From an uncultured Candidatus Saccharimonadales bacterium (GTDB taxonomy: Bacteria > Patescibacteriota > Saccharimonadia > UBA4664): a DNA stretch of 64,000 nucleotides. The number at the start of each line of letters is the position of its first letter. Position 1 is the first letter of the stretch. Positions 1,176 to 59,497 of this stretch are shown one piece after another. A program made the position numbers and the translations under genes. The notes below the pieces were generated by a model. The model saw nothing but the letters and a program-made list of their open reading frames with translations. It ran no database searches and was not told the DNA's origin. The stretch lies in NCBI GenBank assembly GCA_964467655.1, contig CAYXSN010000002.1:27327-91326 (forward strand). Reading direction: 5' to 3'.

Positions 1176-2984
1176 ATGAGAAGACCCAAAACACCTCGCC
1201 AAACCCTGGCGCTTTACTGGCGCGCGACCCTCGGATACCGGGGGTGGCTTGTCATGCACATCGCCACCGTCACGTCGGCGGTACTGGCCCAAAGCATCCT
1301 GTCGCCTTACCTAGTATCCCAAGGGATCAACATCTTGTCGGCCGCCGTGAGTCGTCCCCAGGTGTCGTTTTGGGCGACCTTTGGCACGATCATTAGCTGG
1401 TATCTGGCGGCCCAATTGATGTCCTGGACAGCTTGGCGGTTATCTGGTTGGGCGGTTGTGAAGTTCGAAATCGGTGTGATGGCTAAGCTCGATCAATTGA
1501 GCTTTGAACACCTAGCTGGCCTCAGCTACCGGTTTTACACAAGTGCTTTTACTGGCTCGCTCGTCAACCAGTCCAATCGTTTGGCCCGGTCGTTTGAACG
1601 ACTCTACGACGTGTTGGCGTTCGACATCCTGACTCTGTTCCTCAAAGTCGGTTTTACCTCAACCATCCTGTTTACCATCCAGCCGGTGATCGCTCTAGCC
1701 TTGTTGGCGTTCTTTGCCCTCTACGCCGCCGCAGCCGTTGGTTTGGCGCTGTGGAAAATGCCTGCCAGTGCCGCCGCCGCAGCCGCCTCCAGTCGTCAAA
1801 CCGGACAGCTGGCCGACAAGCTGACCAACATCTCGGCTATCAAGTACTTTGCCCGTGAACCCGACGAAATCACCAGCTATCGCCAAACGGTTGCAACGAC
1901 CAAACAGGCCTTCACACGCGACTGGGTGACGCAAGAAATTATTAACGCCGTTCAGGCGGTTTTGCTAATTGCCTTTAGCGCCGGCTTCTTCATTGGATCG
2001 CTATATCTGGTATCTCAGGGCCGGATCAACTTCGGTCAATTCATTTTGGTGCAATCCTATGTGATGGTCATCTTTGATGCCCTCTGGGGGATTGGCCGGA
2101 TTGCCCGCAATATCGAACGGTCGCTCGCTGATGCCGCCGAAATGACTACCATTATGTCAACGCCAGCCGAAGTGCAAGACCGGCCGGATGCCGCGGCTGT
2201 CACCATCAGCACCGGTCGAGTCGATTTCGAAAGGGTCACCTTCGGTTATGATGGCCAAAAACGGCATCGGGTGTTTCAGGGGCTCGATCTGCACATCGAG
2301 CCGGGCGAAAAAATCGGTCTCGTTGGTACTTCCGGTGGTGGTAAGACGACTATCACCAAACTGTTACTCAGATTGCTCGACATTCAGGACGGCAGCATCT
2401 TGATTGATGGATATGATATCGCCAAATTGCGCCAAGCTGATGTCCGTCGGGCTATCAGCTATGTGCCGCAAGAGCCCCTACTGTTTCACCGCAGCCTGCA
2501 AGAGAACATTGCCTACGGCCGGCCCGAAGCTACCGTCCGCCAGATCAAACAAGCCGCCGCTCGGGCGCACGCCGCCGAGTTCATCGAACAGTTGCCGGAC
2601 GGCTACCAGACGCTGGTGGGCGAACGGGGCATCAAGTTGTCTGGCGGCCAGCGCCAACGCATCGCCATAGCCCGGGCTATGCTCAAAGATGCCCCGATCC
2701 TTATGCTCGATGAGGCCACCAGTGCCCTTGATTCCGAATCAGAAAAGCTCATTCAAGCCGCACTGGCCGACCTCATGCAGGGCCGCACCGCCATCGTCAT
2801 CGCCCACCGCCTCAGTACTATCCAACGACTCGATCGCATCGTCGTTCTGGAAGCCGGCCAAATCGTCGAGCAAGGCAACCACGCCGAGCTTCTCAGACTT
2901 GGTGGTGTCTATGCGGGTCTGTGGGCTCATCAATCTGGCGGCTTTATCGCTGAGGCCAAGACGGAAACCGCCCGCTCAAAGTAG
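1176..2984 (+). CDS. ABC transporter, fused permease/ATPase exporter (MsbA-like)
   Basis: Six-TM N-terminal half; Walker A GTSGGGKTT, ABC signature LSGGQRQRIAIARA, Walker B ILMLDEATSALD, H-loop AHRLST. Confidence 0.9.
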   Translation: MRRPKTPRQTLALYWRATLGYRGWLVMHIATVTSAVLAQSILSPYLVSQGINILSAAVSRPQVSFWATFGTIISWYLAAQLMSWTAWRLSGWAVVKFEIGVMAKLDQLSFEHLAGLSYRFYTSAFTGSLVNQSNRLARSFERLYDVLAFDILTLFLKVGFTSTILFTIQPVIALALLAFFALYAAAAVGLALWKMPASAAAAAASSRQTGQLADKLTNISAIKYFAREPDEITSYRQTVATTKQAFTRDWVTQEIINAVQAVLLIAFSAGFFIGSLYLVSQGRINFGQFILVQSYVMVIFDALWGIGRIARNIERSLADAAEMTTIMSTPAEVQDRPDAAAVTISTGRVDFERVTFGYDGQKRHRVFQGLDLHIEPGEKIGLVGTSGGGKTTITKLLLRLLDIQDGSILIDGYDIAKLRQADVRRAISYVPQEPLLFHRSLQENIAYGRPEATVRQIKQAAARAHAAEFIEQLPDGYQTLVGERGIKLSGGQRQRIAIARAMLKDAPILMLDEATSALDSESEKLIQAALADLMQGRTAIVIAHRLSTIQRLDRIVVLEAGQIVEQGNHAELLRLGGVYAGLWAHQSGGFIAEAKTETARSK

Positions 2985-3026
2985 CCGAAAATCTGGCTAC
3001 CTCGAACGGGCGGTTAGTATCGGGAA

Positions 3027-3494
3027 TCAGGACGATTCAAGCGAAGGCCGGTGTAGGGCGTAACCCACAGCGCCCACGAGCGCCGCAAACTCTGCTACCA
3101 AGGGCAGCCAGATCGGCCAGCTGAAGGGCACGTTCCGTGCCAGATACATAGTCAGCCACATAGTTGGCACTATACCCAAGGCTGCCCAGCTCAACAGAAC
3201 GTTTTTCAGATCATACTGCGCACAGCGGCAGAGCACCTGTGTGCGACAATTTTGTGCCTCGTGCCGCTCCCAGAAGATGGGCTGGCCCTCGCTGGTCGTG
3301 TCAGTTACCCAAGCCACGTACAGTGCCAGCATGACGCCTGAGCTTGCAGCGACACCGAGCAATGTATCGGCCTGTGGCACGGCGTGGCGGAGGCAAGACC
3401 AGTTGAGTAAGGGGGTAACCACGAGGCCACCCAAGAATCCCGCCAGCCTCATGCGGTGAGTTCGAACCATGGTCCTGTGATAGGTACGGCGCAT
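3027..3494 (-). CDS. hypothetical polytopic membrane protein
   Basis: 155 aa with about four predicted hydrophobic helices; no recognisable motif. Confidence 0.4.
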   Translation of the reverse strand: MRRTYHRTMVRTHRMRLAGFLGGLVVTPLLNWSCLRHAVPQADTLLGVAASSGVMLALYVAWVTDTTSEGQPIFWERHEAQNCRTQVLCRCAQYDLKNVLLSWAALGIVPTMWLTMYLARNVPFSWPIWLPLVAEFAALVGAVGYALHRPSLESS

Positions 3495-3620
3495 CGTTCT
3501 CTCTATTCGCTCGAAGGAAGTTGCCGATCGCTAACCACTATAAAAACACAAAGCACGCAAAAAGTCCAATACAACTTGACGCTTCAGTCGAAGCTTGCCA
3601 CAATGAACCAGTCCATGCTT

Positions 3621-3696
3621 GGGGCTGTAGCTCATCCGGTAGAGCGCTGCATTCGCATTGCAGAGGTAAGGGGTTCGAGTCCCCTCAGCTCCACCA
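3621..3696 (+). tRNA. tRNA-Ala (anticodon CGC), CCA encoded
   Basis: Cloverleaf GGGGCTGTAGCTCATCCGGTAGAGCGCTGCATTCGCATTGCAGAGGTAAGGGGTTCGAGTCCCCTCAGCTCCACCA. Anticodon loop TTCGCAT. G3:U70 alanine identity pair. GGTTCGA T-loop. Confidence 0.9.
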
Positions 3697-3776
3697 TAAA
3701 GTACACAAACGCTTTTTTAGCTCAATTTTAACCTTGTCTGATCTGTCAGTAGGGTCATTTTTGATGGTTTGGTTAT

Positions 3777-4286
3777 TCATTTTTGGCCTCCAGTTAATTT
3801 CTTCGTTTCTACGACATTCTTGGCGATAATTCCCGTAAAATCTGTGTACCCAACAGATAGGGAGCTGCCGTCCAAGACCATATTCTGAAAAAGTTTGGTT
3901 ATTATCAGACGCTTTTGCTGCGGCGTGCGTTTGGCATAAATTTCGGCAGCCCGTTGTGACAACTCAAGCAGCACCAAAGTCTGGTCGAGCCGATTGCCAG
4001 CCGATTTATCAATGGTCTGTAATTGCTCGTGCAACTTGGCTTTCTGCTCACGGAACTCGCCATGCTTGGCCACGTACTTTTCCTGGGATATTTCACCTGC
4101 CAGCTTGTCGGGGTTGCCAGCACTTGTCATGTACTGAATACCGCCCATCACCAAAAAGAACACCGCCGCCAGCGATGCCAGCCCGCAGAGCGTAGCAATC
4201 GCGGGCGTGATGAAGCCCTGCATCACTGAGGCAGCCGAAGATGCGTTAGCTAGGAATATGAACGGCATATCTGGAGTGAATGCCAT
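3777..4286 (-). CDS. VirB2/TrbC-like pilin family protein with C-terminal extension
   Basis: N-terminal hydrophobic helix (LCGLASLAAVFFLVMGGIQYMTSAGNP) resembles the neighbouring paralogue and T4SS pilin TrbC/VirB2. About 100 aa of unassigned C-terminal sequence follow. Confidence 0.4.
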   Translation of the reverse strand: MAFTPDMPFIFLANASSAASVMQGFITPAIATLCGLASLAAVFFLVMGGIQYMTSAGNPDKLAGEISQEKYVAKHGEFREQKAKLHEQLQTIDKSAGNRLDQTLVLLELSQRAAEIYAKRTPQQKRLIITKLFQNMVLDGSSLSVGYTDFTGIIAKNVVETKKLTGGQK

Positions 4287-4289
4287 TCG

Positions 4290-4628
4290 TTACTTCCCAA
4301 ATGCGCTCGTTGCTAAGTCGGTCACAATGTTACTGATGACAAAAGCCGCAATGACAATTGCCAGCCCAACACCCGACCAAATGACGGTCTGCCTGGACTT
4401 CTCCAGCCGTTCCGGATTGCCCGAGCTCGTGATGTAGCCCAAGCCACCAACCACAAAGAAACCGGTAGCTACCAGTCCGGCGAGGCCGGCCACCACCTTG
4501 ATAATACTGCGGATAAATGTTTCAACTTGGGTTATATTTCCGTCCGACGCAAATACCGGATGAGCGAGAACGAGGGGAAGACCCAAACTTAGTACTGCCA
4601 TGAATTTTATTGCTTTGGATCTTTGCAC
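4290..4628 (-). CDS. VirB2/TrbC-like pilin (conjugative/T4SS-type pilin subunit)
   Basis: Signal peptide (MAVLSLGLPLVLAHPVFA), two hydrophobic helices separated by SSGNPERLEKSR, about 110 aa. Topology is typical of TrbC/VirB2-family pilins common in CPR genomes. Confidence 0.5.
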   Translation of the reverse strand: MQRSKAIKFMAVLSLGLPLVLAHPVFASDGNITQVETFIRSIIKVVAGLAGLVATGFFVVGGLGYITSSGNPERLEKSRQTVIWSGVGLAIVIAAFVISNIVTDLATSAFGK

Positions 4629-4742
4629 TTGATCGCTCCTACGCCTTTACAAACACTTTTCTTGCCTTAGATATAACAGATGCTTTACATTAAGCAAACA
4701 AGATGTTAGAGCATAAGCAACATTGCTCATGCTAAAATTGGA

Positions 4743-5189
4743 TTGATGTACAAGAGAATGACTGAGAAATTCAAAGCCCTGGAGCCGAATAAACGGCGGA
4801 TCATTATTGGTTCTAGCCTCGCCATTTTGGCGCTCGTCGCGGTCGTAGGATATCGCATGATGGTGCCTGAGCGATCGGTCAGTGCCTACTGCAAAACTTT
4901 TGCCAGTGAGAAAACCAGGCTCGCCAAATACCCAGGCAACACCTACCCATCCGGGGTGTTCAACGACTCGCTAAGCGATGCTGGTCAGTTTGCGACATCA
5001 TTTGGCCGGCTAGAGCGCGTTGCGCCCAGCGACATTAAGCCTGACGTAACAACACTCAAATCCCTCTATCAGAAAATGCACGATGATCCATCATCAAGTT
5101 TTGCGGCAAGCTTGAGTGGCATTGGCGCAGAGAACAGCGTGAAGCAATGGACGGACAGCCATTGCAGCTCCGTAGAAAACGCAAAATAA
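4743..5189 (+). CDS. hypothetical membrane-anchored protein
   Basis: Single N-terminal TM (IIIGSSLAILALVAVVGY) followed by a soluble domain. Confidence 0.4.
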   Translation: MMYKRMTEKFKALEPNKRRIIIGSSLAILALVAVVGYRMMVPERSVSAYCKTFASEKTRLAKYPGNTYPSGVFNDSLSDAGQFATSFGRLERVAPSDIKPDVTTLKSLYQKMHDDPSSSFAASLSGIGAENSVKQWTDSHCSSVENAK

Positions 5190-5214
5190 GTTATCAGAAC
5201 TGGAGACGCGTGAA

Positions 5215-5529
5215 GTGACGATTCAAGAAGCCCAACAACAAGCCCTAGCCATCGCCGAAAAATATCGACACCAAAACGCCGCCCAGGGCAAAGAAACATG
5301 GGACGCATCGGCATATATGGCAGGCTTCGTCGGTGACGTCGGCGATCTATCTAAACTGATCATGGCAAGAGCCGGCTATCGCGACATTGAAAATCACGAC
5401 GCCAAAATTGCCCATGAACTGAGCGATTGCCTCTGGTCGGTACTGGTGCTGGCTCATGAACTTGGGGTTGACCTTGAATCTGAGTTTGCGAACACCATGC
5501 GCGAGCTCGACAAACACCTGGCAGAATAA
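5215..5529 (+). CDS. MazG-like nucleoside triphosphate pyrophosphohydrolase domain protein (GTG start)
   Basis: All-alpha, about 100 aa. Motif pattern EL.D.LW.VLVLAHELGVDLE matches the MazG/NTP-PPase family. GGAGA RBS upstream of GTG. Confidence 0.55.
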   Translation: MTIQEAQQQALAIAEKYRHQNAAQGKETWDASAYMAGFVGDVGDLSKLIMARAGYRDIENHDAKIAHELSDCLWSVLVLAHELGVDLESEFANTMRELDKHLAE

Positions 5530-5555
5530 CCAAAGTCCGGTACAATCACTAGAGC

Positions 5556-6158
5556 ATGCAAACCGAAATCGAAGCCAAATTTATCAATATCAAGCCATCG
5601 GCCATCCGCGCTCGACTAGAGGCGCTTGGCGCTACCCTCGTGCAACCTGAGCGGTTGATGCGCCGCCGTACCTTTGACTTCGCGGACACCCGCCTCAACC
5701 AAACCGGCAGTTGGGCCCGGGTTCGTGATGAAGGCGACAAGATCACCATGAGCTTCAAGCAAAACAAGGACGACACATTACATGGTACCGTTGAAATTAA
5801 CCTAACCGTGGACGACTTTGATACCGCCGCTGACTTCCTGAAGGCGCTCGGTCTAGTACAAAAATCATACCAAGAAACCAAGCGCGAAGCCTGGCTCTTG
5901 GACGGCACCGAAATCACTATCGATACCTGGCCGTGGATTGCTCCCTTCGTCGAAGTTGAAGGCCATTCAGAACAGGCCGTCCGGGAAACCGCAAGCAAAC
6001 TCGGCTTTGACTGGGCCAAAGCTATGCATGGAAGTGTAACCCCCGTCTACCAGCTTGACTACAATGTGACGGCGGCCGAAGTGAACGGTTGGGAAACCAT
6101 AACCTTTGAGCCCGTTCCGGCCTGGCTCGAACAGCGCCGGAAGCCACGCCATGACTAG
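5556..6158 (+). CDS. CYTH-domain protein (triphosphate tunnel metalloenzyme / class IV adenylyl cyclase-like)
   Basis: N-terminal ExExK signature (EIEAKF); about 200 aa with alternating beta-strand pattern and C-terminal acidic residues. Confidence 0.6.
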   Translation: MQTEIEAKFINIKPSAIRARLEALGATLVQPERLMRRRTFDFADTRLNQTGSWARVRDEGDKITMSFKQNKDDTLHGTVEINLTVDDFDTAADFLKALGLVQKSYQETKREAWLLDGTEITIDTWPWIAPFVEVEGHSEQAVRETASKLGFDWAKAMHGSVTPVYQLDYNVTAAEVNGWETITFEPVPAWLEQRRKPRHD

Positions 6159-6606
6159 GCGGATATCGGTTCGTGGCATTGTCCTGCACAAGGGCAAATT
6201 ACTTTGTGTGCGCCTCGGGCCCAGTCCGTCAGAAGGTCGAGTAGGCCCGTCAGATTATTGGTGTCTGCCCGGCGGTGGTCTTGAAGAAGGTGAATCCCTG
6301 CACACTGGACTTGAGCGTGAGATGATTGAGGAAACAGGCGTAAAACCGGCCATTGGCCAGCTCATGTACGTTCAGCAGTTCTCGATTGGCGACAAAGAAT
6401 ATCTGGATTTCTTCTTCCACGTCGCGAACCACCAAGATTATGTGAATATAGATTTGTCCAATACAACGCATGGCGAGATCGAGCTGGCCGAAATCTCATT
6501 TATCGACCCTGCCAGTAGTCATGTTATGCCAGAGTTCCTCACTCAGGAAGATTTACGGCAATTCGTCGAGAGTATCCAACCAACACGTGTGATCTCAAGA
6601 CTTTAA
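6151..6606 (+). CDS. NUDIX hydrolase
   Basis: Perfect Nudix box GGLEEGESLHTGLEREMIEETGV. Start overlaps the upstream stop by 8 nt. Confidence 0.8.
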   Translation: MTRRISVRGIVLHKGKLLCVRLGPSPSEGRVGPSDYWCLPGGGLEEGESLHTGLEREMIEETGVKPAIGQLMYVQQFSIGDKEYLDFFFHVANHQDYVNIDLSNTTHGEIELAEISFIDPASSHVMPEFLTQEDLRQFVESIQPTRVISRL

Positions 6607-6649
6607 TTGTGGCCCGCTCATTGGTGCCAAGGCTTAGATAGGATTTACC

Positions 6650-7168
6650 ATGACAAATCACGAGAACCTTATGTCTGCACCTATTGAAACGGAAATGAAT
6701 TTAATCATCACTGATAAATCTGGCCTACTTGAGTTCTTAAAAACGCAAGCTGACGTTAAGAAATCGCAAATACAATTTGATTATTATGGTAAGCCGGGAG
6801 ATAAATCGTTTTACGTCCGCATCGAGCAACGAACCGATGCTGCCGGCAACGTCACGAGGTTCGTAACTGCCAAGGGTTCCTTCGCCAACAATGACGGTAT
6901 CAACCAAAGAAAAGAGGCAACTCTAGCCATTCCTGATAATGCAGTATCGGATTATAAAGACTTTCTTGAAGTTGTTCAGCTCCAGTCTCGTGATACCAAG
7001 ACTAAAACCCGGCACGCTTTTAAGATCGACGGCCTCGATGTGACTGTCGACGAATGGGATACCCCCGAGCTAGGTGATCGTCTTGAGATTGAAGGCACCG
7101 ATATGGCGAAGATCAAGGATTTTGCCTCACGCGTATCGGCCTATTGCCAGTCCGAGCCCTCAGAATAA
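6650..7168 (+). CDS. CYTH-like domain protein (divergent)
   Basis: N-terminal IETEMNL (ExE) and C-terminal LEIEGTD motifs resemble a CYTH fold. Low certainty. Confidence 0.35.
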   Translation: MTNHENLMSAPIETEMNLIITDKSGLLEFLKTQADVKKSQIQFDYYGKPGDKSFYVRIEQRTDAAGNVTRFVTAKGSFANNDGINQRKEATLAIPDNAVSDYKDFLEVVQLQSRDTKTKTRHAFKIDGLDVTVDEWDTPELGDRLEIEGTDMAKIKDFASRVSAYCQSEPSE

Positions 7169-7185
7169 ACAAGCGGGTATGTCCT

Positions 7186-7228
7186 AAAAAAGCTCAGCCC
7201 AGATGACCATAGCCTCTTTGAGCTTTTT
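7186..7228 (+). terminator. putative rho-independent terminator after the CYTH-like gene
   Basis: aaaaagctca ... tgagcttttt inverted repeat with a T-run. The loop is large, so this is moderate. Confidence 0.35.
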
Positions 7229-7538
7229 CTAGTATTCGTCATATGTAGGAAGTTTCTGGGCAAGCTCAATATAGCAAGACTTGACGGTCGTCGCGGTCAG
7301 TTCAATCTTATCAACCCAGCTGGGAGTACAACTCAGCCGACGAGCTTGCACACAGCAAGATCAGCAAGAGCAAGTTCGCCCTGCGGGTAGACTTCGACCC
7401 CGAGCTACACCCACTTGGTATTGGCGATGGGGGAATCAACGCGTCCACTCTGGTGCCAAACGGGGCTGCGGCCCTGAGTTTGGCTGCCAATGCGGCAAGA
7501 CGGTTGATGGCGGTTGCGGCTACACCTTGAATAGGGTT

Positions 7539-7721
7539 TCAAACGCCGTAGGCGTTACTCATCACATTGGCAAGAGCGGCCGTTCCCGCTAGGATTAGTC
7601 CGCCAGCTACAAATAGCCAGAAGACCCAGTTACCGTGGTCCTTGGAACTAGAGAATTTCCACGCTGACACCGCTACAGCGACTGCGGCAGAAATTAGTAG
7701 GACGATGTAGGCGCTAACCAT
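7539..7721 (-). CDS. small two-TM membrane protein
   Basis: 60 aa, two hydrophobic helices. Confidence 0.3.
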   Translation of the reverse strand: MVSAYIVLLISAAVAVAVSAWKFSSSKDHGNWVFWLFVAGGLILAGTAALANVMSNAYGV

Positions 7722-7784
7722 GAGCTTGCTCTTGTTATTGAAATGCTATTCTGCTCCACATGTTAGAGGCCTAGTTACTCTATG

Positions 7785-8225
7785 TCAATTAGCCAACGAC
7801 CTCTTTAGGATAAGCTGTTGCAGTTCTAGCTGACCGAGGATGTTGGGGTGGAAACTCTGCTGCGGCGGGAGGCTAACGGCGTTGAAGAATGGCCGCTTAG
7901 TACATAGTTCGTGGCCTTTGAAGGCGTCGTACATGGGGACATAGGTAAACCCTGCCGCCTCCGCTTTGCTCTTGATCTGCAAATCCATGTTGAGTGTCCG
8001 GCTGCAAAGACGCCCCAGGAGCTCCACCATAAGAAACGCGACAATGTACGCCTCCGAGCCAAACCCGTAGTTGACGAAGCCTGGTATGATAGACCTATGA
8101 CTATTACTGTTCTCCAATGGAATACCTGGTACCAAGAAAACGTCCATCACATCGCCGGCTTTTTGGCTGAGCATCCGGCTGACATCCTGACGCTCCAAGA
8201 GCTCACCATCGGTGACCGGCTTCAA
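7785..8225 (-). pseudogene. possible truncated SGNH/GDSL-hydrolase C-terminal fragment
   Basis: C-terminal ...FTYVPMYDAFKGHELCT...SFHPN... resembles block V (DxxHP) of SGNH hydrolases. The 5-prime part overlaps the EEP gene on the other strand, so the full ORF is unlikely. Confidence 0.25.
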
Positions 8226-8840: not shown

Positions 8841-9011
8841 AAAAATAAGGTCATAATAATTTACTAAATAGTAAAAAATATGCTAATATACTGTATATTT
8901 GTGAGTGACTGGTCGGTCATGGTCTGAACTTACGCGATCGTTGAAAACCAAATATTGTACAAACAATTTGTTCAATACCAGATAGCAGAACCTAGCGGAA
9001 GGAGATGCATC

Positions 9012-11309
9012 ATGGCGGCACATCGCCAGGCAACGCTTCTATTTGAGGAGCAAAGCTCCAGTTCACCGGCTTGCGTCGGAGGCAAGGGAGCCGGTCTGGC
9101 AGCAATGGTAGCTCTCGGGCTACCAGTGCCACCAGGCTTCACCATCCACACGGGCGTTTGCCGCGCCTACCTGCAACACAGTCGGCTGCCACGGCGGCTC
9201 GCTTGGCAGGTGACGCGCAGTCTGGCAAAGCTTGAGCAGGAAACTGGCCGCGAGTTTGGCGATAGTGTCGACCCACTGCTGGTGTCGGTTCGTTCTGGCG
9301 CAGCCGTGTCGATGCCCGGCATGATGGATACAGTCCTCAACCTCGGAATCAATCCCGAAGTTGTGTCTGCCCTCAGCCGTAGGTATGGCGAATGGTTTGC
9401 GTACGATACTTTCAGACGATTCCTCGCCATGTACGGCGAAGTCGTTATGGGTGTCGATGCCGGACTACTCAAGCTGCCCCATGAATTGGCCAAGCTCGAC
9501 GCCGGCGGTAACGCCGTGAGCGCCGATGCCTTGGAGATTGTCTGCGTCGAGATGCTTGAGCTCATCGAAATGGAAACCGGTTCGCCTGTTCCCGTCGATC
9601 CTCGTGAGCAGCTCGACAATGCGATTACTGCTGTGTTCAGGTCTTGGAACAGTGAGCGGGCCATTGCCTATCGGCAGGCCCACGGACTCAACCATGCCGC
9701 CGGCACTGCAGTGAATGTGCAGGCCATGGTGTATGGCAACCGCGATGAAGCTTCGGCTTCCGGCGTGGTCTTTAGCTCAAACCCCACCACCGGCCAGCCA
9801 GGTCTCTTCGGAGAATTTCTGGTACAGGCGCAGGGTGAGGATGTCGTAGCTGGAGCCAGTAAGCCTTTGCCAATTAGTCACTTGGCAGACTGGAATCAGC
9901 AGATCAGCACCGAGCTAGCTGCTCACGTCAGCCACTTGGCGACCTTGCATGGCGAAGTTGTCGACGTTGAGTTTACCGTCGAGTCTGGGCGTCTCTACAT
10001 CCTGCAGGTCAGGGCCGCCAAGCAAACCTTGGTGGCTCGGGTAACCCAAGCTGTCCACCGCGTGTGGTCGGGCGAAATTGCCCGCGAAGACGCCGTAAGC
10101 CTTTTTACTGCTGACGAGTTCATGCAACTCAAAGTCGCTTGCGTTGATAAGGATACGTTGAAGGACGTCCTCGTCGTGCTTGGCAACGGGATAGCTGTGT
10201 CTCCTGGCGCTGCTACAGGCGTTGTGGTCGACTCATCAGCAGATGCATGTGAACTGGCAGCCACGGGGCAATCAGTGGTGCTCGTGCGTTGTGAAACGAG
10301 CCCCGATGATTTACCAGGCATGTTGGTAGCCAGCGCCATCGTCACTTTTGCCGGCGGCACTACCTGCCATGCAGCAGTGGTGGCCAGAGAAATCGGGCGC
10401 CCATGTGTGGTAAATGCTCAGCTTCATCGGAGACTGCGTCCGGGCATGGCAGTAACTGTCGACGGCACCTCGGGATCTATTTACCGGGGCCGTTTACCAC
10501 TCACCAATGCCCGGCCGACCAAAGAAGTGGCCATCCTCATGAAGTGGAAGCAAGGCACGGCCTACCAGCCGCGACTCAACTTCGACTTGATGAAAGAGCA
10601 CCATTCAGTGAACCGCATGGCGACAGACTTCTACTCGGTCGACGCCATGTGGCAATGTAGCCGCGGAACCGCACTGGAAGACCTCTGCTATCAGAAGCGT
10701 CAAAAGGTCCACATTGATGCCGCTGAATTTTTGGCCACGTATGTGGCTGTAGCGGTAGCTGGTGAACTACGCCATTACGCACGATCGAACGACAATGTTG
10801 ACCTGGAAGCGCATCCGCACATCAGTCATCTCCGGCAGAAGTTCGGGTTGATTGCCGTGTCTGAGTGCCTTGGTGATGAAAGGGCACACAAGCGGCAATA
10901 CGCGCAAGAGCAAATTGCTAGCGCTTTAAGAACCATGGACGTAGCAAGTCAGATAGAGTTCTTTGAAACCGCGGTTTTGGCCTTCGAATCCAGGTTATTC
11001 GGGGGATCGTACGGTGGCGAGATGTGGGCTCAAATTGCTCGCGCTGGAGCCATGTTCCTGCGGGGCGAAATGCCGCCAACAGTGGCGGCTGACCACATCT
11101 TCGACCTGCGGCACAACTGCGGCCGCATCTTCGATAAGCATCCTATGGCGAGCGATTTGACGCGTGAGGGCGATTTGGGCCATCAGCTTGATTACAAGCG
11201 ATCAGTTCCTGACATCAAAGAGCTGTGGTCAAAACTCAATTTCTATGGTCGTGCAAGCGACCAAATCACTGAACTGTGGCACCATGGTCAGAGTTCTGAT
11301 CTATGGTAA
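9012..11309 (+). CDS. PEP-utilising enzyme family protein: PPDK-type N-terminal ATP-binding domain + phospho-His swivel domain + unassigned about 280-aa C-terminal domain
   Basis: N-terminus VGGKGAGLAAM...PVPPGF (PEP synthase / pyruvate phosphate dikinase nucleotide-binding domain). Central GGTTCHAAVVAREIGRPCVV mobile His domain. GGAAGGAG RBS before the ATG at 9012. Confidence 0.75.
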   Translation: MAAHRQATLLFEEQSSSSPACVGGKGAGLAAMVALGLPVPPGFTIHTGVCRAYLQHSRLPRRLAWQVTRSLAKLEQETGREFGDSVDPLLVSVRSGAAVSMPGMMDTVLNLGINPEVVSALSRRYGEWFAYDTFRRFLAMYGEVVMGVDAGLLKLPHELAKLDAGGNAVSADALEIVCVEMLELIEMETGSPVPVDPREQLDNAITAVFRSWNSERAIAYRQAHGLNHAAGTAVNVQAMVYGNRDEASASGVVFSSNPTTGQPGLFGEFLVQAQGEDVVAGASKPLPISHLADWNQQISTELAAHVSHLATLHGEVVDVEFTVESGRLYILQVRAAKQTLVARVTQAVHRVWSGEIAREDAVSLFTADEFMQLKVACVDKDTLKDVLVVLGNGIAVSPGAATGVVVDSSADACELAATGQSVVLVRCETSPDDLPGMLVASAIVTFAGGTTCHAAVVAREIGRPCVVNAQLHRRLRPGMAVTVDGTSGSIYRGRLPLTNARPTKEVAILMKWKQGTAYQPRLNFDLMKEHHSVNRMATDFYSVDAMWQCSRGTALEDLCYQKRQKVHIDAAEFLATYVAVAVAGELRHYARSNDNVDLEAHPHISHLRQKFGLIAVSECLGDERAHKRQYAQEQIASALRTMDVASQIEFFETAVLAFESRLFGGSYGGEMWAQIARAGAMFLRGEMPPTVAADHIFDLRHNCGRIFDKHPMASDLTREGDLGHQLDYKRSVPDIKELWSKLNFYGRASDQITELWHHGQSSDLW

Positions 11310-17308: not shown

Positions 17309-18921
<1,613 letters not shown>

Positions 18922-29016: not shown

Positions 29017-31173
29017 TTAGCGATTAATCCTGGTCTGGCCCATCAAGCGTCGGATGATCCCGTCACCGATCTGCTCGGCATATTTGTCCGCAACCAATGG
29101 GCTTGTGATGTTCGCGCCGTCTAGGTTGACGGTAACTTGTGTGCCGCCACCGCTACCAGCCGTGCTAACCCGGCCAGCCACCATCTTAGAAGTCTCGTAG
29201 GTGTTGTACACATTTGAGCCACTTGGCAACGAGATAAGCTCTGGCCCATGCTCACCGACCATAGCCAGACCTCCTGCGAAGCCACGAACACCCGATGCAA
29301 AGCCGGGGATATGCAGGTTGTGCAACAGGTTCGCATTTGGCAGGTTAAGTAATTTCGCACCATAATCCGCAATTTTGCCAATCAGACCGCTCCAGCTATT
29401 CGCGGAATCGTTCACCTTACGCTTAGATTCGTCGAGCTTGGCGTTCAGGTTGTTCTGAGCGTTGGCGACCTTGTCGGAAGAGTCCTTAACTTGGTTCTGA
29501 GCGTCTTTTACAGCGTTGTTGGCATCTTTTAGCCGGTTGTTGGCACCCTCGAGATTGTAGGCCGCCTGACGTGCTTCAAGGCTGGTAGGGCCATACTGAC
29601 GTACTGCTTCATTGTAGCTACGCTGAGCTTGTTCGACCGCCAGTGACGCACCCTGCTCGTCATATTGGGCATTCTTCAGCCTATCGCTGGCCTCTTTCGC
29701 CTCATCCATTGCGCGAGCTAAGTCACGCTTGGCATCAGCGGTCTGCTTGGCCTGCATTGCGTTGCTGAATAATGCCTGTGTCAGCGTACCAACCACGCCA
29801 ACTACCGGGTATGCGGCACCCAAGAATGTCACAACGCTCTTGCCCCACGTGTCCCAATGCTGGACTGCAAGCACCATGATCGCCACCAGCGCACCAATTG
29901 CCGCACCGATTGCCAATACCGGCCATGTCGCCGCAACAGTTGCCACTGCCGCAGGGATGGCAGCCGCCGCCCACGCGACGAAGGATGGTACGAGCGTTGA
30001 AAGAACGGCGGCGGCAAATGCACCGATTCCGGCTGCCAACGGGATAATGACCGCCTGTAAAACGTTCGCTTTATCGGCCATCAGTTTGATAATGGCACCC
30101 ACGGCGGCACCGGCGGCTATGAACGGGATGAGGGGAGCCAAAGCCGTCCAAACCGATACGCCTAGTGCTGCGAACGCGGGGACAAGACCACCGACTATTG
30201 CGCCGACGATGATGGGCGCGTTGTTCTTCATCCAGCCAAATGCCGCCATGATCTTTGGCTCCAGTTCGGAGAGCTTCTGGGTAATGACCGGGATCATTCG
30301 GCTCATCGAATCAAATAATCCACCCGGTTTGACGACTAAGCCAAGCTGCGGATCGACCTGAACGCCCAATAATCGACGGCCAAATTCCATCACGCTATCT
30401 TTTAGCGTACTTAGGCGGCCATTAAATGTCTCCGCCAGCTTAGTTGTACCTTGAAAGGCAAATTGACCGCTCTGGCCTGCTTTCTCGAACGCCTTATTGA
30501 ACACTTCAAGACTAATGCCTCCGCTTGCCCAGATGTCCTGTAGCTTGGAGGTGTCTACGCCGACGTTTTTAAGCATTTTGCCAATCGGCACCCCCATATC
30601 AATCAACTGGTTAAAGTTCTCGGCCTGCAAGCGTCCGGCACCAGTCACTTGGCCGAATACCACGGCTAGATTCTTCAACGGGCTTCCAGTGACGGCGGCG
30701 ATGTCGCCCAACTGTCGCATTTTGCCCATAACTAGATCTTCATTGATGCCGAATCCTAGTAGGTTTTTGCCAGCGGCTGCGATTTCCGGAAACTCAAAAG
30801 GCGTGTTATTAGCGTATGCAGCGAGCTGTCCGAATAATTTATTGGCTCGGTCGGTGTTGCCGATCAACACCTTGAACGAGTCGCTGGTCTGCTGCAGGTC
30901 GGCCGCACTCTTTACCGCAACGCCGCCCAGCGCTGCAGCCGAACCGACGACAACGGTTAAGATGCCTGCAAGCTTTTGGCTGCTATCGATTGCCGCCGCC
31001 ATGCTTTTCTGCATGTGAGCGGTTGCGCCCTCAACCTGATTCGCAAAATTCTGAACGGACGCTAGACCAGTTTTTAGTCCGTCTGTTTTTGCCACGAGCG
31101 AGACGATTATTGAACCTAAGTTGAACGCCATACTACACCTCCTGAAGCGGAGGAATTGAGCGCACAAACACAA
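29017..31173 (-). CDS. phage tail tape-measure protein
   Basis: About 700 aa. N-terminal TP901-type TMP core region. Central hydrophobic/Gly-Ala-rich segment. C-terminal coiled coil (NAVKDAQNQVKDSSDKVANAQNNLNAKLDESKRK). Likely true start is MAFNLGS at 31131. Confidence 0.8.
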   Translation of the reverse strand: MCLCAQFLRFRRCSMAFNLGSIIVSLVAKTDGLKTGLASVQNFANQVEGATAHMQKSMAAAIDSSQKLAGILTVVVGSAAALGGVAVKSAADLQQTSDSFKVLIGNTDRANKLFGQLAAYANNTPFEFPEIAAAGKNLLGFGINEDLVMGKMRQLGDIAAVTGSPLKNLAVVFGQVTGAGRLQAENFNQLIDMGVPIGKMLKNVGVDTSKLQDIWASGGISLEVFNKAFEKAGQSGQFAFQGTTKLAETFNGRLSTLKDSVMEFGRRLLGVQVDPQLGLVVKPGGLFDSMSRMIPVITQKLSELEPKIMAAFGWMKNNAPIIVGAIVGGLVPAFAALGVSVWTALAPLIPFIAAGAAVGAIIKLMADKANVLQAVIIPLAAGIGAFAAAVLSTLVPSFVAWAAAAIPAAVATVAATWPVLAIGAAIGALVAIMVLAVQHWDTWGKSVVTFLGAAYPVVGVVGTLTQALFSNAMQAKQTADAKRDLARAMDEAKEASDRLKNAQYDEQGASLAVEQAQRSYNEAVRQYGPTSLEARQAAYNLEGANNRLKDANNAVKDAQNQVKDSSDKVANAQNNLNAKLDESKRKVNDSANSWSGLIGKIADYGAKLLNLPNANLLHNLHIPGFASGVRGFAGGLAMVGEHGPELISLPSGSNVYNTYETSKMVAGRVSTAGSGGGTQVTVNLDGANITSPLVADKYAEQIGDGIIRRLMGQTRINR

Positions 31174-46481: not shown

Positions 46482-49400
46482 ATGAACAAATACGATCCTC
46501 ACGCCCTCGAGCCTAAATGGCAGCAAGTTTGGGCCGACACCAACCTGTACGCCGCCACCGATGACGACCACACCCGCCAAAAATACTACTACCTAGTGGA
46601 GTTTCCGTACCCCAGCGGCGACGGTCTGCATGTCGGCCACGTCCTTAGCTACACGGCGCTCGACATCATGGCCCGCCACAAGCGCATGCAAGGCTACAAC
46701 GTGCTCTACCCCATGGGCTTCGACGAATTTGGCTTGCCCACCGAAAACTATGCCATCAAACACAAAATTGCCCCCCAGGTTGCCACGCAAGCAAATGTGG
46801 CCAACTTCCGCCGCCAACTAAAGTCACTTGGCCTAAGCTTCGACTGGAACCGCGAAGTGCGCACTTCCGACCCCAACTATTACAAGTGGACGCAGTGGAT
46901 CTTCCTCAAGCTGCTCGAAAAAGGCCTAGCTTATCAGGCCGAGCTGCCCATCAACTGGTGCCCGTTCTGTAAAACTGGCCTGGCGAATGAAGAAGTGGTT
47001 GACGGCAAGCACGAGCGCTGTGGCACCCCAGTCGAAAAGAAGCTGCTCACCCAGTGGATGCTTAAAATTACCGCCTACGCCGACCGCCTGGCCGAAGACC
47101 TCAAAACCGTCGATTACCTCGACAGGATCGCTACCCAGCAGATCAACTGGATCGGGCGAAGCGAAGGGGCGGAGATTGACTTTACGCTAGCCGATCACGA
47201 TTACGACGTGGCCGACAGCCTGAAGTTCACGCCTGAGCTGACCAAACTAGTACAGGCTGGCACCAAGACTAACACCATCCGGCTTGAGCCCAAGAATCTC
47301 AAGGTTGGCGATTATACCCGCCTCATCACCCGCTATGATGCTGATCGCACACAAAGCTTTGCCATCGCCAAGATCACCAAGGTTGAAAAGCACGCGTTAT
47401 CTGATATTCCCGTTGATTTGGGTGGTCACGAGCCGTTCGCCAACAAGGCCGAGCAACTTGCCAGCTACCGCAAATACTACGGCGACGCCGTTACCGCCGA
47501 AACTGAATTCACCATTTATTACTTTGAAACTGTTGCCAATACCGTTACCGTCTACACCACCCGCCCCGATACCATCTTTGGCGCTACCTTCCTGGTGGTG
47601 TCGCCCGAAGTGGCCAAAACCTGGATCGACAGCGGTTGGAAAGCCCCCAAACCGGCCGCCGAGTACATCGATGCCGCTCTCAAGGCCAGCGAGCTGTCGC
47701 GCCAGGAAGAGTCAAAAGTCAAAACCGGTGTCGATACCGGCATCACAGCCATCCATCCACTGACCGGCAATCCAGTGCCCGTCTGGGTGGCCGATTACGT
47801 CCTAGGCTCCTATGGCACCGGCGCCATCATGGCCGTGCCCGCCCACGACGAACGCGATTACGAGTTTGCCAAGGCCTTTGATTTACCTGTCACATATGTA
47901 GTTGAGCCTCGTACGGGCACCGGCCCCGATGCGCCTGTACAGCGGCCCAGCATCGTTGCCGTACTACTTGATCAATCTGGTGAACGGGTAGTAAGTATGG
48001 ACCACCACGGACGCCATGATAATTGGGGCGGCCATTTACTCATTGGCGGTGGCATAGACCAGGGTGAACAGCCAATTGACACGGCCCGTCGCGAAATAAT
48101 CGAAGAAACCGGCTACACTGATTTTGAGCTGGTCGAACAAGCTCCATTTCAGATCCATCATCAGTATTTCTCGGCTGAGAAGAAGATCAATCGGCTGGCG
48201 GTTACAACCGGTTTTCTCTTCAAGCTTACCAGTGACCAAAGAGCTGAGCTAAAGCTGACAGACAGCGAAAAACGCAATAGCGTTGAACCGGTCTGGCTGC
48301 CCATTACCGATGCTTTAACGAGCGTAAAAGACGAAATGCATTCGTTGTGGCTACGCTTTTTCACACAAGGCACAAGCTTTGCTGCCAACGGCCCCCTCAT
48401 CAACTCCGGCGAGTTCAACGGCTTGTCTGGCACCGAGGCCAAGCGCGCCATCATCAAGGCATTGTTCGACAAAGGCGCTGGCCGCGGCGCCACCAAATAC
48501 CGCCTGCGCGACTGGATCTTTAGCCGCCAGCACTACTGGGGTGAGCCGATCCCGGTGGTGCATTGCCCCAAAGACGGCGTCGTACCCGTACCCGTCGACC
48601 AACTACCCATCGAGCTGCCCAAAGTCGACCACTACGAGCCGACAGACACCGGCGAGTCGCCGCTGGCCGCCATCACCGACTGGGTGAACACCACGTGCCC
48701 CAAGTGTGGTGGGCCCGCCAAGCGCGAAACCGACACCATGCCCAACTGGGCCGGTTCAAGTTGGTACTTCTTGCGCTACACCGACCCGCACAACGCCAAA
48801 GAGTTTGCGAGTGCCGAAAACCTCAAGTACTGGACCCCTGTCGACCTCTACAACGGCGGCATGGAGCACACCACGCTCCACTTGCTCTACAGCCGCTTCT
48901 GGCACAAATTCCTCTACGACGAAGGCCTCGTGCCCACATCAGAGCCCTACGCCCGGCGCCGCAGTCACGGCATGATACTCGGACCCGACGGCCAAAAGAT
49001 GAGCAAATCCAAGGGCAACGTGATTAATCCAGACAGCGTGGTAGCGCAGTACGGCGCCGACACCATCAGGCTCTACGAAATGTTTATGGGCCCGTTTGAT
49101 GAGGTCAAAGCCTGGAGCGAAGACCATCTCAATGGTGTATCGCGCTTCATGTACCGGGTCTGGACCTGGCTGGACGACCTCACCGACGACGCCGAAACTC
49201 TTGCCGGATCAGTCGGCTACGAAAACGACCTTGGCGCCTTTACCGTGGCCACCGACAGGATCGTCCACAAAACGCTCAAGAAAGTGCACCACGACATCGA
49301 AGACATGCATTTCAACACCGCCGTGTCGGCCATGATGGAGCTGGTCAATTATCTAACGAGCGCCGACGTCAAACGCAAACTCCGCCAGGCCAATGCCGCC

Positions 49401-59016: not shown

Positions 59017-59497
59017 CAATCGCCATCTTGGCCGCATCGTGGCTATGCAGACGCTGTACGAACATGATTTCCGGGGCGGTGAAGCCTCAGGACTCAAGTT
59101 ACCGGCTATCCTCGAGCGCAACCTTGATGAGTTTAGGTCAAACATCGAAGACACCAATTTTGTCCAAGATGTAGTTGATGGTGTGTCGGCTCACCAAGCG
59201 GACATCGACGCCATTATCGGCCCGGCGGCCCCCGAATGGCCGGTCGATCAAATTGCCAAGATCGATAAAATCATTCTGAGGATCGGCGTGTACGAACTGA
59301 TTATCAAGCGCGAAGTACCTCCCAAAGTAGCTATCAACGAAGCCGTCGAACTGGCCAAAACCTTTGGCGGCGAAAACTCAAGTAAATTTATCAATGGTGT
59401 CTTGGGCACCATTTACCGCTCAAGCGATTTTTATGAACCAGAACCAGACCCCGAATCCCAACCAACCGAAAACCCAACGGAAGCCAATCAAGCGTAA
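59009..59497 (+). CDS. nusB: transcription antitermination factor NusB (with acidic C-terminal tail)
   Basis: [18 protein letters not shown]-terminus and NusB helical core. Start uncertain: GTG at 59009 or ATG at 59039. Confidence 0.7.

What the first reader, a model, noticed from the sequence alone, without database searches (positions are those of the whole stretch)
5215..7168. Compact MazG - CYTH - NUDIX - CYTH-like cluster (four nucleotide / polyphosphate hydrolases in a row)
Seen in the sequence: four consecutive same-strand genes encode:
- a MazG-like NTP pyrophosphohydrolase domain;
- a CYTH triphosphate-tunnel protein with an ExExK start (EIEAKF);
- a canonical NUDIX hydrolase, overlapping the CYTH stop;
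- a second, divergent CYTH-like protein.

A terminator follows.

Inference: these are four house-cleaning or signalling nucleotide hydrolases in one transcription unit next to the pilin genes. That would fit a nucleotide-salvaging episymbiont that cannot synthesise nucleotides de novo.

The cluster could also be a signalling-nucleotide or (p)ppGpp / alarmone / modified-dNTP degradation module, possibly an anti-defence or anti-phage nucleotide-depletion function.
Basis: partly seen in the sequence, partly recalled or inferred. Interest (0 to 1): 0.55.

Follow-up and report, generated by a model that had tools for sequence, protein, structure and literature searches.

The report
Four nucleotide hydrolase genes, recently juxtaposed
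Four intact genes for phosphate-cleaving nucleotide enzymes do sit in a row in this probable Saccharibacteria genome, but the row is specific to this lineage and partly created by a recent 3-kb deletion, so it is not a conserved four-enzyme machine.

Summary
- g1 is a MazG-like all-alpha NTP pyrophosphohydrolase of the DCTPP1/YpjD/iMazG type.
- g2 is a CYTH/TTM enzyme with EIEAK.
- g3 is a canonical Nudix whose ATG overlaps the g2 stop by 8 nt.
- g4 is a divergent CYTH.

All are under purifying selection (dN/dS 0.07-0.12).

The "module" reading does not hold.
- The sister contig L001 has four extra genes (285 aa, 113 aa, methyltransferase, NDK) between g3 and g4. The window has a ~3.15-kb deletion that fused the RBS and first three codons of the 285-aa gene onto g4.
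- g4's older partners are NDK, a TMK-like kinase and an RGP-like gene. Only a 43-codon RGP stub survives (7187-7315).
- Among 80 species genomes carrying g2, none has g1 or g4 within 6 kb. A Nudix abuts g2 in 8.
- In the six neighbourhoods read for g1 homologues, g1-g3 adjacency occurs only in the two with more than 80% identity.

Two side results are new.
- The g2 family is annotated "class IV adenylate cyclase" but lacks the cyclase motifs. It has the ExExK+WxRxR+ExE signature of thiamine triphosphatases.
- g4 defines a rare CYTH subfamily with ExExN+YxRxE.

I found no defence or phage link.

The parts
4758..5189 (+). g0: 143-aa protein with an N-terminal membrane anchor and no known domain. 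It is the conserved upstream partner of g1.
   Evidence: No Pfam or NCBIfam hit. Orthologues lie directly upstream of g1 in L001 (90% aa identity) and L097 (71%). dN/dS 0.095. Gene call 4758-5189 is inferred from L087.
5215..5529 (+). g1: single-domain MazG-like all-alpha NTP pyrophosphohydrolase (YpjD/iMazG/DCTPP1 type). Its metal ligands appear as D41xxD44 ... E68xxD71.
   Evidence: The family has 2794 clusters, which sources name Saccharimonadales NTP pyrophosphatase/MazG.
5556..6158 (+). g2: CYTH / triphosphate-tunnel metalloenzyme. It carries ExExK (E4,E6,K8), W53xR55xR57 and E133xE135, and has no HF motif.
   Evidence: The family is about 60% identical across Patescibacteria.
6151..6606 (+). 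g3: canonical Nudix hydrolase. Its start overlaps the g2 stop by 8 nt.
   Evidence: Orthologues are found in L001 (82%) and L097 (64%).
6607..6670 (+). Deletion junction. The intergenic DNA, the RBS (AGGATTTAC) and ATGACAAAT derive from the 5' end of a 285-aa gene. From CACGAGAACC (6659) onward the sequence is g4.
   Evidence: Alignment of the window with both L001 segments, plus blastn and tblastn. About 3147 bp of L001 (roughly 1978-5124) are absent. The flanks form an imperfect 19-nt repeat, GACAAATTTCGAGAGACTT / GATAAAACACGAGAACCTT.
6650..7168 (+). g4: divergent CYTH of a rare subfamily with ExExN (E13,E15,N17), Y55xR57xE59 and E146xE148. The likely native start is ATG 6671 (MSAPIETEMN).
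   Evidence: dN/dS 0.088.
7187..7228 (.). A-run/T-run hairpin between g4 and the convergent RGP remnant. It could be a bidirectional terminator, but it is not statistically distinctive.
   Evidence: Fold -17.5 kcal/mol, z=-0.59. Not called by the terminator scan.
7187..7315 (-). Remnant (last 43 codons) of an RGP-family (PF03214) gene that is intact in relatives. It marks the second breakpoint flanking g4.
   Evidence: tblastn gives 93% identity to residues 277-319 of the L001 RGP gene, and nothing upstream of that. The gene is intact downstream of g4 in L001, L002, L104 and L107.

Best explanation
**Overall reading**
The four genes are real, intact and selectively maintained phosphohydrolases of a probable Saccharibacteria genome. 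They form a lineage-specific mosaic, not a dedicated four-step system.

**Shown**
- The stable core is g0-g1-g3 (membrane protein, MazG-like, Nudix).
- g2 sits between g1 and g3 only in this species and its sister.
- g4 originally lay about 3 kb downstream, translationally overlapped with NDK and followed by an RGP-like gene and a TMK-like kinase.
- A ~3.15-kb deletion between short imperfect repeats removed four genes, including NDK. It fused the ribosome-binding site and first three codons of the first deleted gene onto g4.
- A second event truncated the RGP gene.

**Inferred**
- Each enzyme works on its own substrate in nucleotide or organic-polyphosphate upkeep.
- g1 splits (d)NTPs, probably non-canonical ones, into NMP and PPi on a four-helix-bundle metal site.
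- g2 removes the terminal phosphate of an organic triphosphate. Its W53 platform is expected to stack an aromatic ring (thiamine triphosphate or an NTP). It is not a cyclase.
- g3 cleaves a nucleoside-diphosphate-X bond.
- g4 has lost two basic tunnel residues (K to N, R to E). It probably handles a less negatively charged ligand or binds metal differently.
- Such genes tend to collect in loose 'nucleotide islands' in these reduced genomes. Genome streamlining pushed them together here.
For: **Family assignments**
- See (g1; g2; g3; g4).

**Deletion and ancestral g4 context**
- L001 order is g0-g1-g2-g3-285aa-113aa-MTase-NDK-g4-RGP(-)-TMKlike-GT1.
- L002, whose g4 is 62% identical, also has NDK-g4-RGP.
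- The RGP stub is shown.

**The arrangement is fixed in this species**
- Four independent assemblies show the same order.

**Gene order is not conserved**
- In 80 species genomes carrying g2, g1 is nearby in 0/80, g4 in 0/80, and a Nudix abuts g2 in 8/80 against about 3-4.5 expected.
- L097 has g0-g1-g3 with no g2, followed by IMPase and an unrelated CYTH.
- g1 at 63-68% identity has other neighbours.

**Islands**
- L107: IMPase, 2 Nudix, HD_4, HD, g4, HD_3, GT1, TMK-like, NDK-like, RGP.
- L112: CYTH-Nudix-kinase-HD-GNAT-g4.
- L097: beside RNR, TMK, UDG and ThyA.

**Selection and motifs**
- dN/dS is 0.07-0.12 for all five genes.
- Motif logic comes from Vogt et al. 2021 (PMC8233210).
Against: - CYTH followed by Nudix with overlapping stop and start recurs with different family members (window; L026, L049; L112). 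Nudix abuts g2 more often than expected (8/80, P about 0.01-0.08). Some functional coupling of those two is therefore possible.
- g4 stayed intact and acquired a good RBS after the deletion. That could mean selection for co-expression with g1-g3.
- Two CYTH paralogues plus Nudix also co-occur near g4 homologues in L112 and L118.
- No substrate has been tested for any of the four families.
- The motif rules are empirical.
- THTPA's catalytic Tyr39 is not conserved in g2 (T39).
Confidence: 0.6

Rival explanations
1. The cluster, or at least the g2-g3 pair, is a co-selected pathway. The CYTH enzyme would remove the gamma-phosphate from a 5'-triphosphorylated substrate (NTP, thiamine triphosphate or the 5' end of RNA). 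The translationally coupled Nudix would then cleave the resulting diphosphate. g1 and g4 would widen the substrate range.
For: - g2 and g3 overlap by 8 nt.
- Nudix abuts g2 orthologues in 8/80 species, 7 of them on the same strand and often overlapping.
- An unrelated CYTH-Nudix pair with a 1-nt overlap occurs in L112.
- E. coli RppH prefers diphosphorylated RNA, and the triphosphatase that makes that substrate is unidentified (PMC8565310).
- g3's weak best matches include RNA pyrophosphohydrolases.
Against: - 90% of g2 orthologues have no adjacent Nudix, and where one is present it can be upstream or downstream.
- L097 keeps g1-g3 without g2.
- g3 scores far below every RppH model cut-off (28.7 vs 116 bits).
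Confidence: 0.2
2. g4 is a decaying remnant. After losing NDK and its glycan/nucleotide neighbours it is no longer needed, and it only looks intact because the deletion is recent.
For: - Both flanks of g4 were deleted or truncated.
- Its N-terminus is chimeric.
- dN/dS against L001 cannot separate the branch before the deletion from the branch after it.
Against: - The ORF is full length and all 13 family-invariant residues are retained.
- dN/dS is 0.088.
- The same allele is present in at least four samples.
- The captured RBS and ATG keep it translatable.
Confidence: 0.08
3. Second-messenger signalling module. g2 and/or g4 would be class IV adenylate cyclases, as databases annotate g2. MazG and Nudix would degrade cyclic or alarmone nucleotides.
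For: - Source annotations read 'adenylate cyclase class 2 / class IV'.
- NCBIfam cyaB gives E=1.4e-7, but this is below its cut-off.
- E. coli MazG is linked to the stringent response. This point is from my own knowledge.
Against: - The AC-IV hallmarks are HFxxxxExExK, a small residue in place of the first Arg, and ExA (PMC8233210). g2 has none of them: HF is present in 0/120 sequences, WxRxR in 115/120, and ExE is invariant.
- g4 also has ExE and no HF.
Confidence: 0.04
4. Anti-phage defence or anti-defence nucleotide-depletion module, possibly mobile.
For: - The region is variable between close relatives, and its GC content is slightly low (0.50-0.51 against about 0.545).
- A prophage-like element lies 10 kb away.
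- g3 hits the PADLOC candidate PDC-S07.
Against: - The PADLOC hit is a generic Nudix match, and the other five proteins tested (g0, g1, g2, g4 and the EEP-family gene) hit nothing.
- PHROGs gives only generic MazG/Nudix matches.
- No relative of g1, g2 or g4 was found in 2.9 M viral contigs.
- The g1 and g2 families are broadly and vertically distributed in CPR.
- There is no integrase or other mobile-element gene in 3.0-9.0 kb.
Confidence: 0.03

Closest known systems
Single-domain tetrameric MazG-like NTP pyrophosphohydrolases: Bacillus-conserved MazG (PDB 5ie9), B. subtilis YpjD (2gta), integron iMazG (2q73), mammalian DCTPP1/RS21-C6 (6sqw, 2oie)
   Same: g1 has the same size (about 105 aa) and the same four-helix bundle (TM 0.7-0.75). 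Profile similarity is E 2e-5 to 1e-3. It has two acidic pairs on helices 2 and 3.
   Different: Helix-2 ligands are Asp (GDVGD) instead of the usual EExxE, and an invariant His67 precedes E68. g1 itself scores below Pfam's MazG cut-off. The substrate is unknown.
Inorganic/nucleoside triphosphatases of the TTM family: SaTTM Saci_0718 (7ns8), Pfu-838710 (1yem), NeuTTM, CthTTM
   Same: g2 has ExExK, the basic tunnel residues and ExE. Its best PDB relative by profile is SaTTM (7e-8).
   Different: These TTMs have a small residue (AxRxR) where the g2 family has an invariant Trp (WxRxR).
Metazoan 25-kDa thiamine triphosphatase (THTPA; 3tvl, 5a64)
   Same: g2 shares the motif triple ExExK + W53xR55xR57 + ExE. 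hhalign places W53, R55 and R57 in the same columns (27% identity over 107 columns, E 4e-5).
   Different: g2 is not an orthologue (70% hhalign probability). THTPA's catalytic Tyr39 is Thr or variable in g2. ThTPase activity in CYTH proteins is known only from animals (PMC8615392). Activity is untested here.
Arabidopsis TTM1/TTM2 (CYTH proteins lacking ExExK, pyrophosphate-preferring)
   Same: g4 also lacks the Lys of ExExK and has an aromatic residue in the W/YxRxR position.
   Different: g4 keeps both N-terminal Glu residues and the C-terminal ExE. It replaces the second Arg with Glu. It is a single domain of about 160 aa with no uridine-kinase domain, and it is bacterial.
MutT/RppH-type Nudix hydrolases (e.g. 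3id9, BdRppH 3ees, MutT2 5zrc)
   Same: g3 has a canonical Nudix box and fold-level similarity, E 2e-6 to 1e-4.
   Different: g3 reaches no NCBIfam equivalog cut-off. No specificity motif was identified.

Membership tests
MazG / all-alpha NTP pyrophosphohydrolase superfamily (g1) | Four-helix-bundle fold | tested here: met
   The AF2 model has pLDDT 96 and four helices. All top 50 Foldseek PDB hits are MazG-like, TM up to 0.75.
MazG / all-alpha NTP pyrophosphohydrolase superfamily (g1) | Acidic metal-binding pairs ExxE ... ExxD on helices 2 and 3 | tested here: met
   D41xxD44 and E68xxD71 are present. D41 and E68 are invariant, and D44 and D71 are at least 90% conserved, in 34 family members. 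They align to EEvGEL / EElyD of iMazG. Asp replaces Glu on helix 2.
MazG / all-alpha NTP pyrophosphohydrolase superfamily (g1) | Pfam PF03819 gathering score | tested here: not met
   20.6 bits against a cut-off of 22. Some family members do carry PF03819.
CYTH / TTM (g2) | Pfam PF01928 above cut-off; ExExK; C-terminal ExE | tested here: met
   51.4 bits against 23.2. E4, E6, E133 and E135 are invariant and K8 is at least 90% conserved. ExExK is present in 113/120 sequences.
Class IV adenylate cyclase (CyaB) (g2, as annotated in databases) | HFxxxxExExK; first Arg of xRxR replaced by a small residue; ExA instead of ExE (PMC8233210) | tested here: not met
   HF is present in 0/120 sequences. 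ExExK starts at residue 4 in 100/120, which leaves no room for HF. WxRxR is present in 115/120. ExE is invariant. TIGR00318 scores 31.5 against a cut-off of 57.95.
Thiamine triphosphatase-type CYTH (g2) | Motif triple ExExK + WxRxR + ExE | tested here: met
   The columns align with human THTPA W53/R55/R57.
Thiamine triphosphatase-type CYTH (g2) | Orthology to THTPA, catalytic Tyr39/Lys65 dyad, and ThTP hydrolysis | tested here: inconclusive
   hhalign gives only 70% probability. Tyr39 aligns to Thr39, and the Lys65 region is poorly aligned. Enzyme activity cannot be tested with these tools.
CYTH / TTM (g4) | Eight-stranded tunnel fold and profile homology | tested here: met
   The top Foldseek hits are 2een, 7ns9, 1yem, AtTTM3 and YpAC-IV, E 1e-9 to 1e-7. 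hhalign to the g2 family gives 98.1% probability.
CYTH / TTM (g4) | Hallmark ExExK motif | tested here: not met
   The motif is ExExN family-wide: N in 14 of 16 sequences, and S or D in the other two. The Pfam score of 13.2 is below the cut-off of 23.2.
Nudix hydrolases (g3) | Nudix box GX5EX7REUXEEXGU and Pfam PF00293 | tested here: met
   The Nudix box is GGGLEEGESLHTGLEREMIEETGV. The score is 45 bits against a cut-off of 21.1.
Conserved four-gene operon / module | Same gene order in related genomes | tested here: not met
   The order is found only in the same species (L087-L090). The sister contig L001 has four genes between g3 and g4. None of 80 species genomes has g1 or g4 near g2.
Anti-phage defence / anti-defence systems | Match to known defence models, or presence in phage genomes | tested here: not met
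   PADLOC gives only a generic Nudix hit to PDC-S07. No relatives were found in the viral contigs.

The most novel reading that the evidence does not exclude
**The reading**
- The g2 family comprises thousands of Patescibacteria proteins now labelled 'class IV adenylate cyclase'. I propose it is a prokaryotic CYTH enzyme specialised for an organic triphosphate.
- It uses the Trp platform so far known only from animal thiamine triphosphatases.
- Its recurrent translational coupling to a Nudix gene would reflect a two-step removal of a 5'-triphosphate: gamma-phosphate by CYTH, then beta-phosphate by Nudix.

**Candidate substrates**
- If the substrate is RNA, g2 would be a candidate for the bacterial RNA triphosphatase that feeds RppH-type enzymes. 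That enzyme is still unidentified in E. coli (PMC8565310).
- If the substrate is thiamine triphosphate, g2 would be the first bacterial ThTPase.

**g4**
- g4 (ExExN/YxRxE) would be a second, rarer specialisation of the tunnel for a less charged ligand.
Probability: 0.12. Interest if true: 0.7.

Novelty: new variant of a known kind. Interest (0 to 1): 0.33.

Why it matters
**As a gene cluster, this is ordinary.**
- It consists of housekeeping phosphohydrolases of known superfamilies in a reduced genome.
- Their adjacency is an accident of recent deletions.
- This is a caution against reading compact gene rows in streamlined CPR genomes as operons without checking sister genomes.

**Three by-products are useful.**
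1. The deletion junction is cleanly resolved and shows start-codon and RBS capture.
2. It corrects a widespread annotation. The CPR-wide g2 family is not a class IV adenylate cyclase, and it carries the ThTPase-type WxRxR signature, which gives a testable substrate hypothesis.
3. It defines a rare CYTH subfamily (31 matches at E<=0.001 among 1.84 billion cluster representatives). In this subfamily two hallmark basic residues are replaced throughout. In close relatives its gene lies next to NDK, and in more distant ones within about 3 kb of NDK-like and TMK-like kinase genes.

Tried and rejected
- **Adenylate-cyclase reading of g2.** Rejected on the three motif rules of Vogt et al. 2021.
- **Defence or phage origin.**
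  - PADLOC, PHROGs and three viral-contig scans gave nothing specific.
- **Riboswitch or other RNA element near the cluster.**
  - I looked in particular for a TPP riboswitch, to support the thiamine idea.
  - Rfam found nothing in 4300-8000 at E<=1. Across the whole window it found only two tRNAs.
- **Terminator after g4.** The hairpin is not better than shuffled sequence.
- **Sigma-70-like sites, including one before g2 (5518-5546).** The count is no higher than in shuffles.
- **NDK elsewhere in the window.** None was found by tblastn. The rest of the genome could not be searched.
- **A dTMP-kinase-like polyphosphate kinase (PPK3, PMC12995831) as partner of g4.**
  - I noted this only as a lead from the TMK-like neighbour. 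I did not test it.
- **Technical dead ends.**
  - The search for related loci with the 16-sequence g4 alignment failed for lack of conserved stretches. It worked with 7 sequences.
Full report
**Observation**

The window holds four consecutive + strand ORFs at the stated coordinates.
- g1: 5215-5529, 104 aa.
- g2: 5556-6158, 200 aa, starting MQTEIEAKF.
- g3: 151 aa from ATG 6151 to 6606. Its start overlaps the g2 stop by 8 nt.
- g4: 6650-7168, 172 aa.

A fifth gene, g0 (4758-5189), lies 25 nt upstream on the same strand. It has an N-terminal membrane anchor and no known domain. T4SS-type (TrbC/VirB2-like) pilin genes diverge from it on the minus strand.

**Family assignments**

- Pfam supports g2 (CYTH, E=1.5e-13) and g3 (NUDIX, E=1.3e-11) outright. 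g1 (MazG, 20.6 vs 22 bits) and g4 (CYTH, E=0.083) fall below the curated cut-offs.
- Deeper tests confirm g1.
  - A 34-member family profile hits Bacillus MazG 5ie9 (2e-5), iMazG, YpjD and DCTPP1.
  - The AlphaFold model is a four-helix bundle with pLDDT 96.
  - Its 50 best PDB fold matches are all MazG-like.
  - The metal-binding acidic pairs are conserved as D41xxD44 / E68xxD71.
- Deeper tests also confirm g4.
  - The model (pLDDT 87.9) matches only triphosphate-tunnel enzymes at the top (E 1e-9 to 1e-7).
  - hhalign of the g4 family against the g2 family gives 98.1% probability, E 1e-13.
- The claimed terminator is weak. An A-run/T-run hairpin at 7187-7228 folds no better than shuffles (z=-0.59) and was not called by the scan.

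**Whose genome**

- g2's closest genome hit is a Candidatus Saccharibacteria MAG (65%). The family spans Patescibacteria at about 55-65% identity.
- Sources name g1's relatives Candidatus Saccharimonadales NTP pyrophosphatases.
- The exact g1, g2, g3 and g4 proteins occur in public assemblies.
- The same g0-g1-g2-g3-g4 order is seen in four independent assemblies (L087-L090). The arrangement is real and fixed in this species.

**How the row arose**

- The sister contig L001 is 83-90% identical in nucleotides. It carries g0-g1-g2-g3, then four further genes, and only then g4.
  - The four extra genes are a 285-aa protein with a weak sulfotransferase-like hit, a 113-aa protein, a SAM methyltransferase and NDK.
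  - In L001 the called g4 gene overlaps the NDK stop.
- L002, with g4 only 62% identical, also has NDK overlapping g4, followed by a convergent RGP-family gene. NDK-g4-RGP is therefore the older state.
- The junction alignment shows what happened.
  - Window 6590-6658 matches the end of the L001 Nudix gene, the intergenic DNA, and the RBS and first three codons (ATGACAAAT) of the 285-aa gene.
  - From CACGAGAACC onward it matches L001 g4.
  - The two flanks form an imperfect 19-nt direct repeat.
  - About 3147 bp are missing.
- g4 thus acquired a foreign RBS and start. Its probable native start, ATG 6671 (MSAPIETEMN), is retained 7 codons downstream. This point is inferred from family N-termini.
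- Downstream, only the last 43 codons of the RGP gene survive (7187-7315, minus strand, 93% identity). g4 is therefore flanked by two rearrangement scars.
- All five genes show strong purifying selection against L001: dN/dS 0.095, 0.074, 0.069, 0.121 and 0.088.

**Conservation of order**

- I examined 80 species-representative genomes that carry a g2 orthologue, with 6 kb on each side.
  - None has a g1-family gene, by a family HMM.
  - None has a g4-family gene.
  - A Nudix gene abuts g2 in 8. Seven are on the same strand, three downstream and four upstream, and several overlap.
  - About 3-4.5 such cases are expected by chance, P about 0.01-0.08.
- L097 comes from the same sample as L001, with g1 83% identical.
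  - It has g0-g1-g3 directly joined, with no g2.
  - An inositol-monophosphatase-family gene and a CYTH gene unrelated to g2 and g4 follow.
  - The island lies beside RNR, thymidylate kinase, GreA-like, UDG and ThyA.
- g1 homologues at 63-68% identity have unrelated neighbours.
- The stable unit is therefore g0-g1-g3 within a narrow clade. g2's position is shared only with L001, and g4's position is unique to this species.

**g4's own family and context**

- An exhaustive profile search of 1.84 billion cluster representatives found only 31 with E<=1e-3.
- The family has invariant E13, E15, R57, E59, T73, K75, E89, K117, K119, E146 and E148.
- Homologues at 41-51% identity lie in varied islands rich in nucleotide enzymes.
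  - L106 and L107 have an HD_3 (YfbR-like) gene, GT1, a TMK/dNK-like kinase and an NDK-like gene. L107 also has RGP. All of these lie downstream of g4.
  - L107 also has IMPase, two Nudix genes, HD_4 and HD upstream.
  - L112 has a further CYTH type overlapping a Nudix gene by 1 nt, then a P-loop kinase, HD, GNAT and g4.
  - L118 has Nudix, g4, an APH-like kinase and the same extra CYTH type as L112.
- Phosphohydrolase genes therefore do tend to gather loosely. The members and their order change from genome to genome.

**What the enzymes probably do (inference)**

Vogt et al. 2021 (PMC8233210) give three motif rules for CYTH proteins.
- Class IV cyclases have HFxxxxExExK, a small residue for the first Arg of xRxR, and ExA.
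- Triphosphatases have ExExK + AxRxR + ExE.
- Thiamine triphosphatases have ExExK + WxRxR + ExE.
- The pyrophosphate-preferring AtTTM1/2 lack ExExK and ExE but keep Y/WxRxR.

Applying these rules to g2:
- The family has ExExK in 113/120 sequences and WxRxR in 115/120. None has HF, and most have only three residues before the motif. ExE is invariant.
- hhalign places g2 W53, R55 and R57 on human THTPA W53, R55 and R57 (27% identity over 107 columns, E 4e-5, 70% probability).
- THTPA's Tyr39 is not conserved in g2.
- The database label 'class IV adenylate cyclase' is therefore not supported.
- I predict a gamma-phosphate hydrolase for an aromatic organic triphosphate, either ThTP or an NTP.
- ThTPase activity in this superfamily is known only in animals (PMC8615392).

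Applying them to the other three:
- g4 has ExExN and YxRxE. Two tunnel-lining basic residues are replaced, and both acidic metal motifs are kept. This suggests a less negatively charged ligand or altered metal handling.
- g1 resembles house-cleaning dNTP pyrophosphohydrolases.
- g3 is a generic Nudix. It reaches no equivalog cut-off.

**Alternatives**

- No defence or phage link was found.
- No riboswitch or other Rfam element lies in or near the cluster.
- The most interesting surviving alternative is functional coupling of CYTH and Nudix. It could be a two-step removal of a 5'-triphosphate. That would echo the unidentified RNA triphosphatase acting before RppH in E. coli (PMC8565310). I rate it as unlikely because 90% of g2 orthologues have no adjacent Nudix.

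**Verdict**

- The interpretation as a four-enzyme module is not supported.
- The cluster is an ordinary set of housekeeping hydrolases brought together by genome streamlining.
- Two family-level curiosities deserve a bench test: the g2 WxRxR signature and the g4 ExExN/YxRxE signature.

Noticed in passing
window 46482-49748 (+): The 1088-aa leucyl-tRNA synthetase carries an extra ASCH domain (aa 247-349, E=4e-7) and an extra NUDIX domain (aa 488-612, E=2e-13). They flank the editing domain (aa 350-482). This is an unusual insertion in an aminoacyl-tRNA synthetase.
   Followed up: no
window 17309-18921 and 29017-31173: A serine recombinase gene (17320-18921, minus strand) overlaps tRNA-Ala(GGC) at 17309-17384, and a tape-measure protein gene lies at 29017-31173. 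Together they suggest an integrated phage-like element.
   Followed up: no
window 7187-7315 (-): Only the last 43 codons of an RGP-family (PF03214) gene remain. The gene is intact in L001, L002, L104 and L107. Synteny with L001 ends at 7315.
   Followed up: yes
window 8955-11309 (+): A 784-aa protein has PPDK_N and PEP-utilizers mobile domains, but no C-terminal PEP-utilizers TIM-barrel domain was detected at E<=1e-5.
   Followed up: no
window 59331-60011 (+): My iterated Nudix HMM found a third Nudix-domain ORF in the window, in addition to g3 and the LeuRS insert.
   Followed up: no
L097:69-6882: A related genome from the same sample as L001 has g0, MazG-like, Nudix, IMPase and an unrelated CYTH (ExExR, SxRxR type). 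They lie next to RNR large subunit, thymidylate kinase, GreA-like, UDG and ThyA, forming a nucleotide-metabolism island.
   Followed up: partly
L032 and L033 (contig CAIOLF010000046.1, 26039-38626 and 70449-83036): One Buchananbacteria contig carries two copies of the g2-type CYTH gene about 44 kb apart, with identical scores. This could be a duplication or an assembly repeat.
   Followed up: no
L005 / L006 (g2 homologue P0011, 63% identity): Here the g2-type CYTH sits directly upstream of a cytochrome oxidase operon (COX2, COX1, COX3, COX4, UbiA). This is unexpected for a family otherwise seen in fermentative CPR genomes.
   Followed up: no
L001:6702-7280; L107:7332-8406: Divergent thymidylate-kinase-like and NDK-like genes accompany g4 homologues. 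A 2026 paper shows that dTMP-kinase paralogues can be polyphosphate kinases (PPK3, PMC12995831). I did not test whether these are such enzymes.
   Followed up: no
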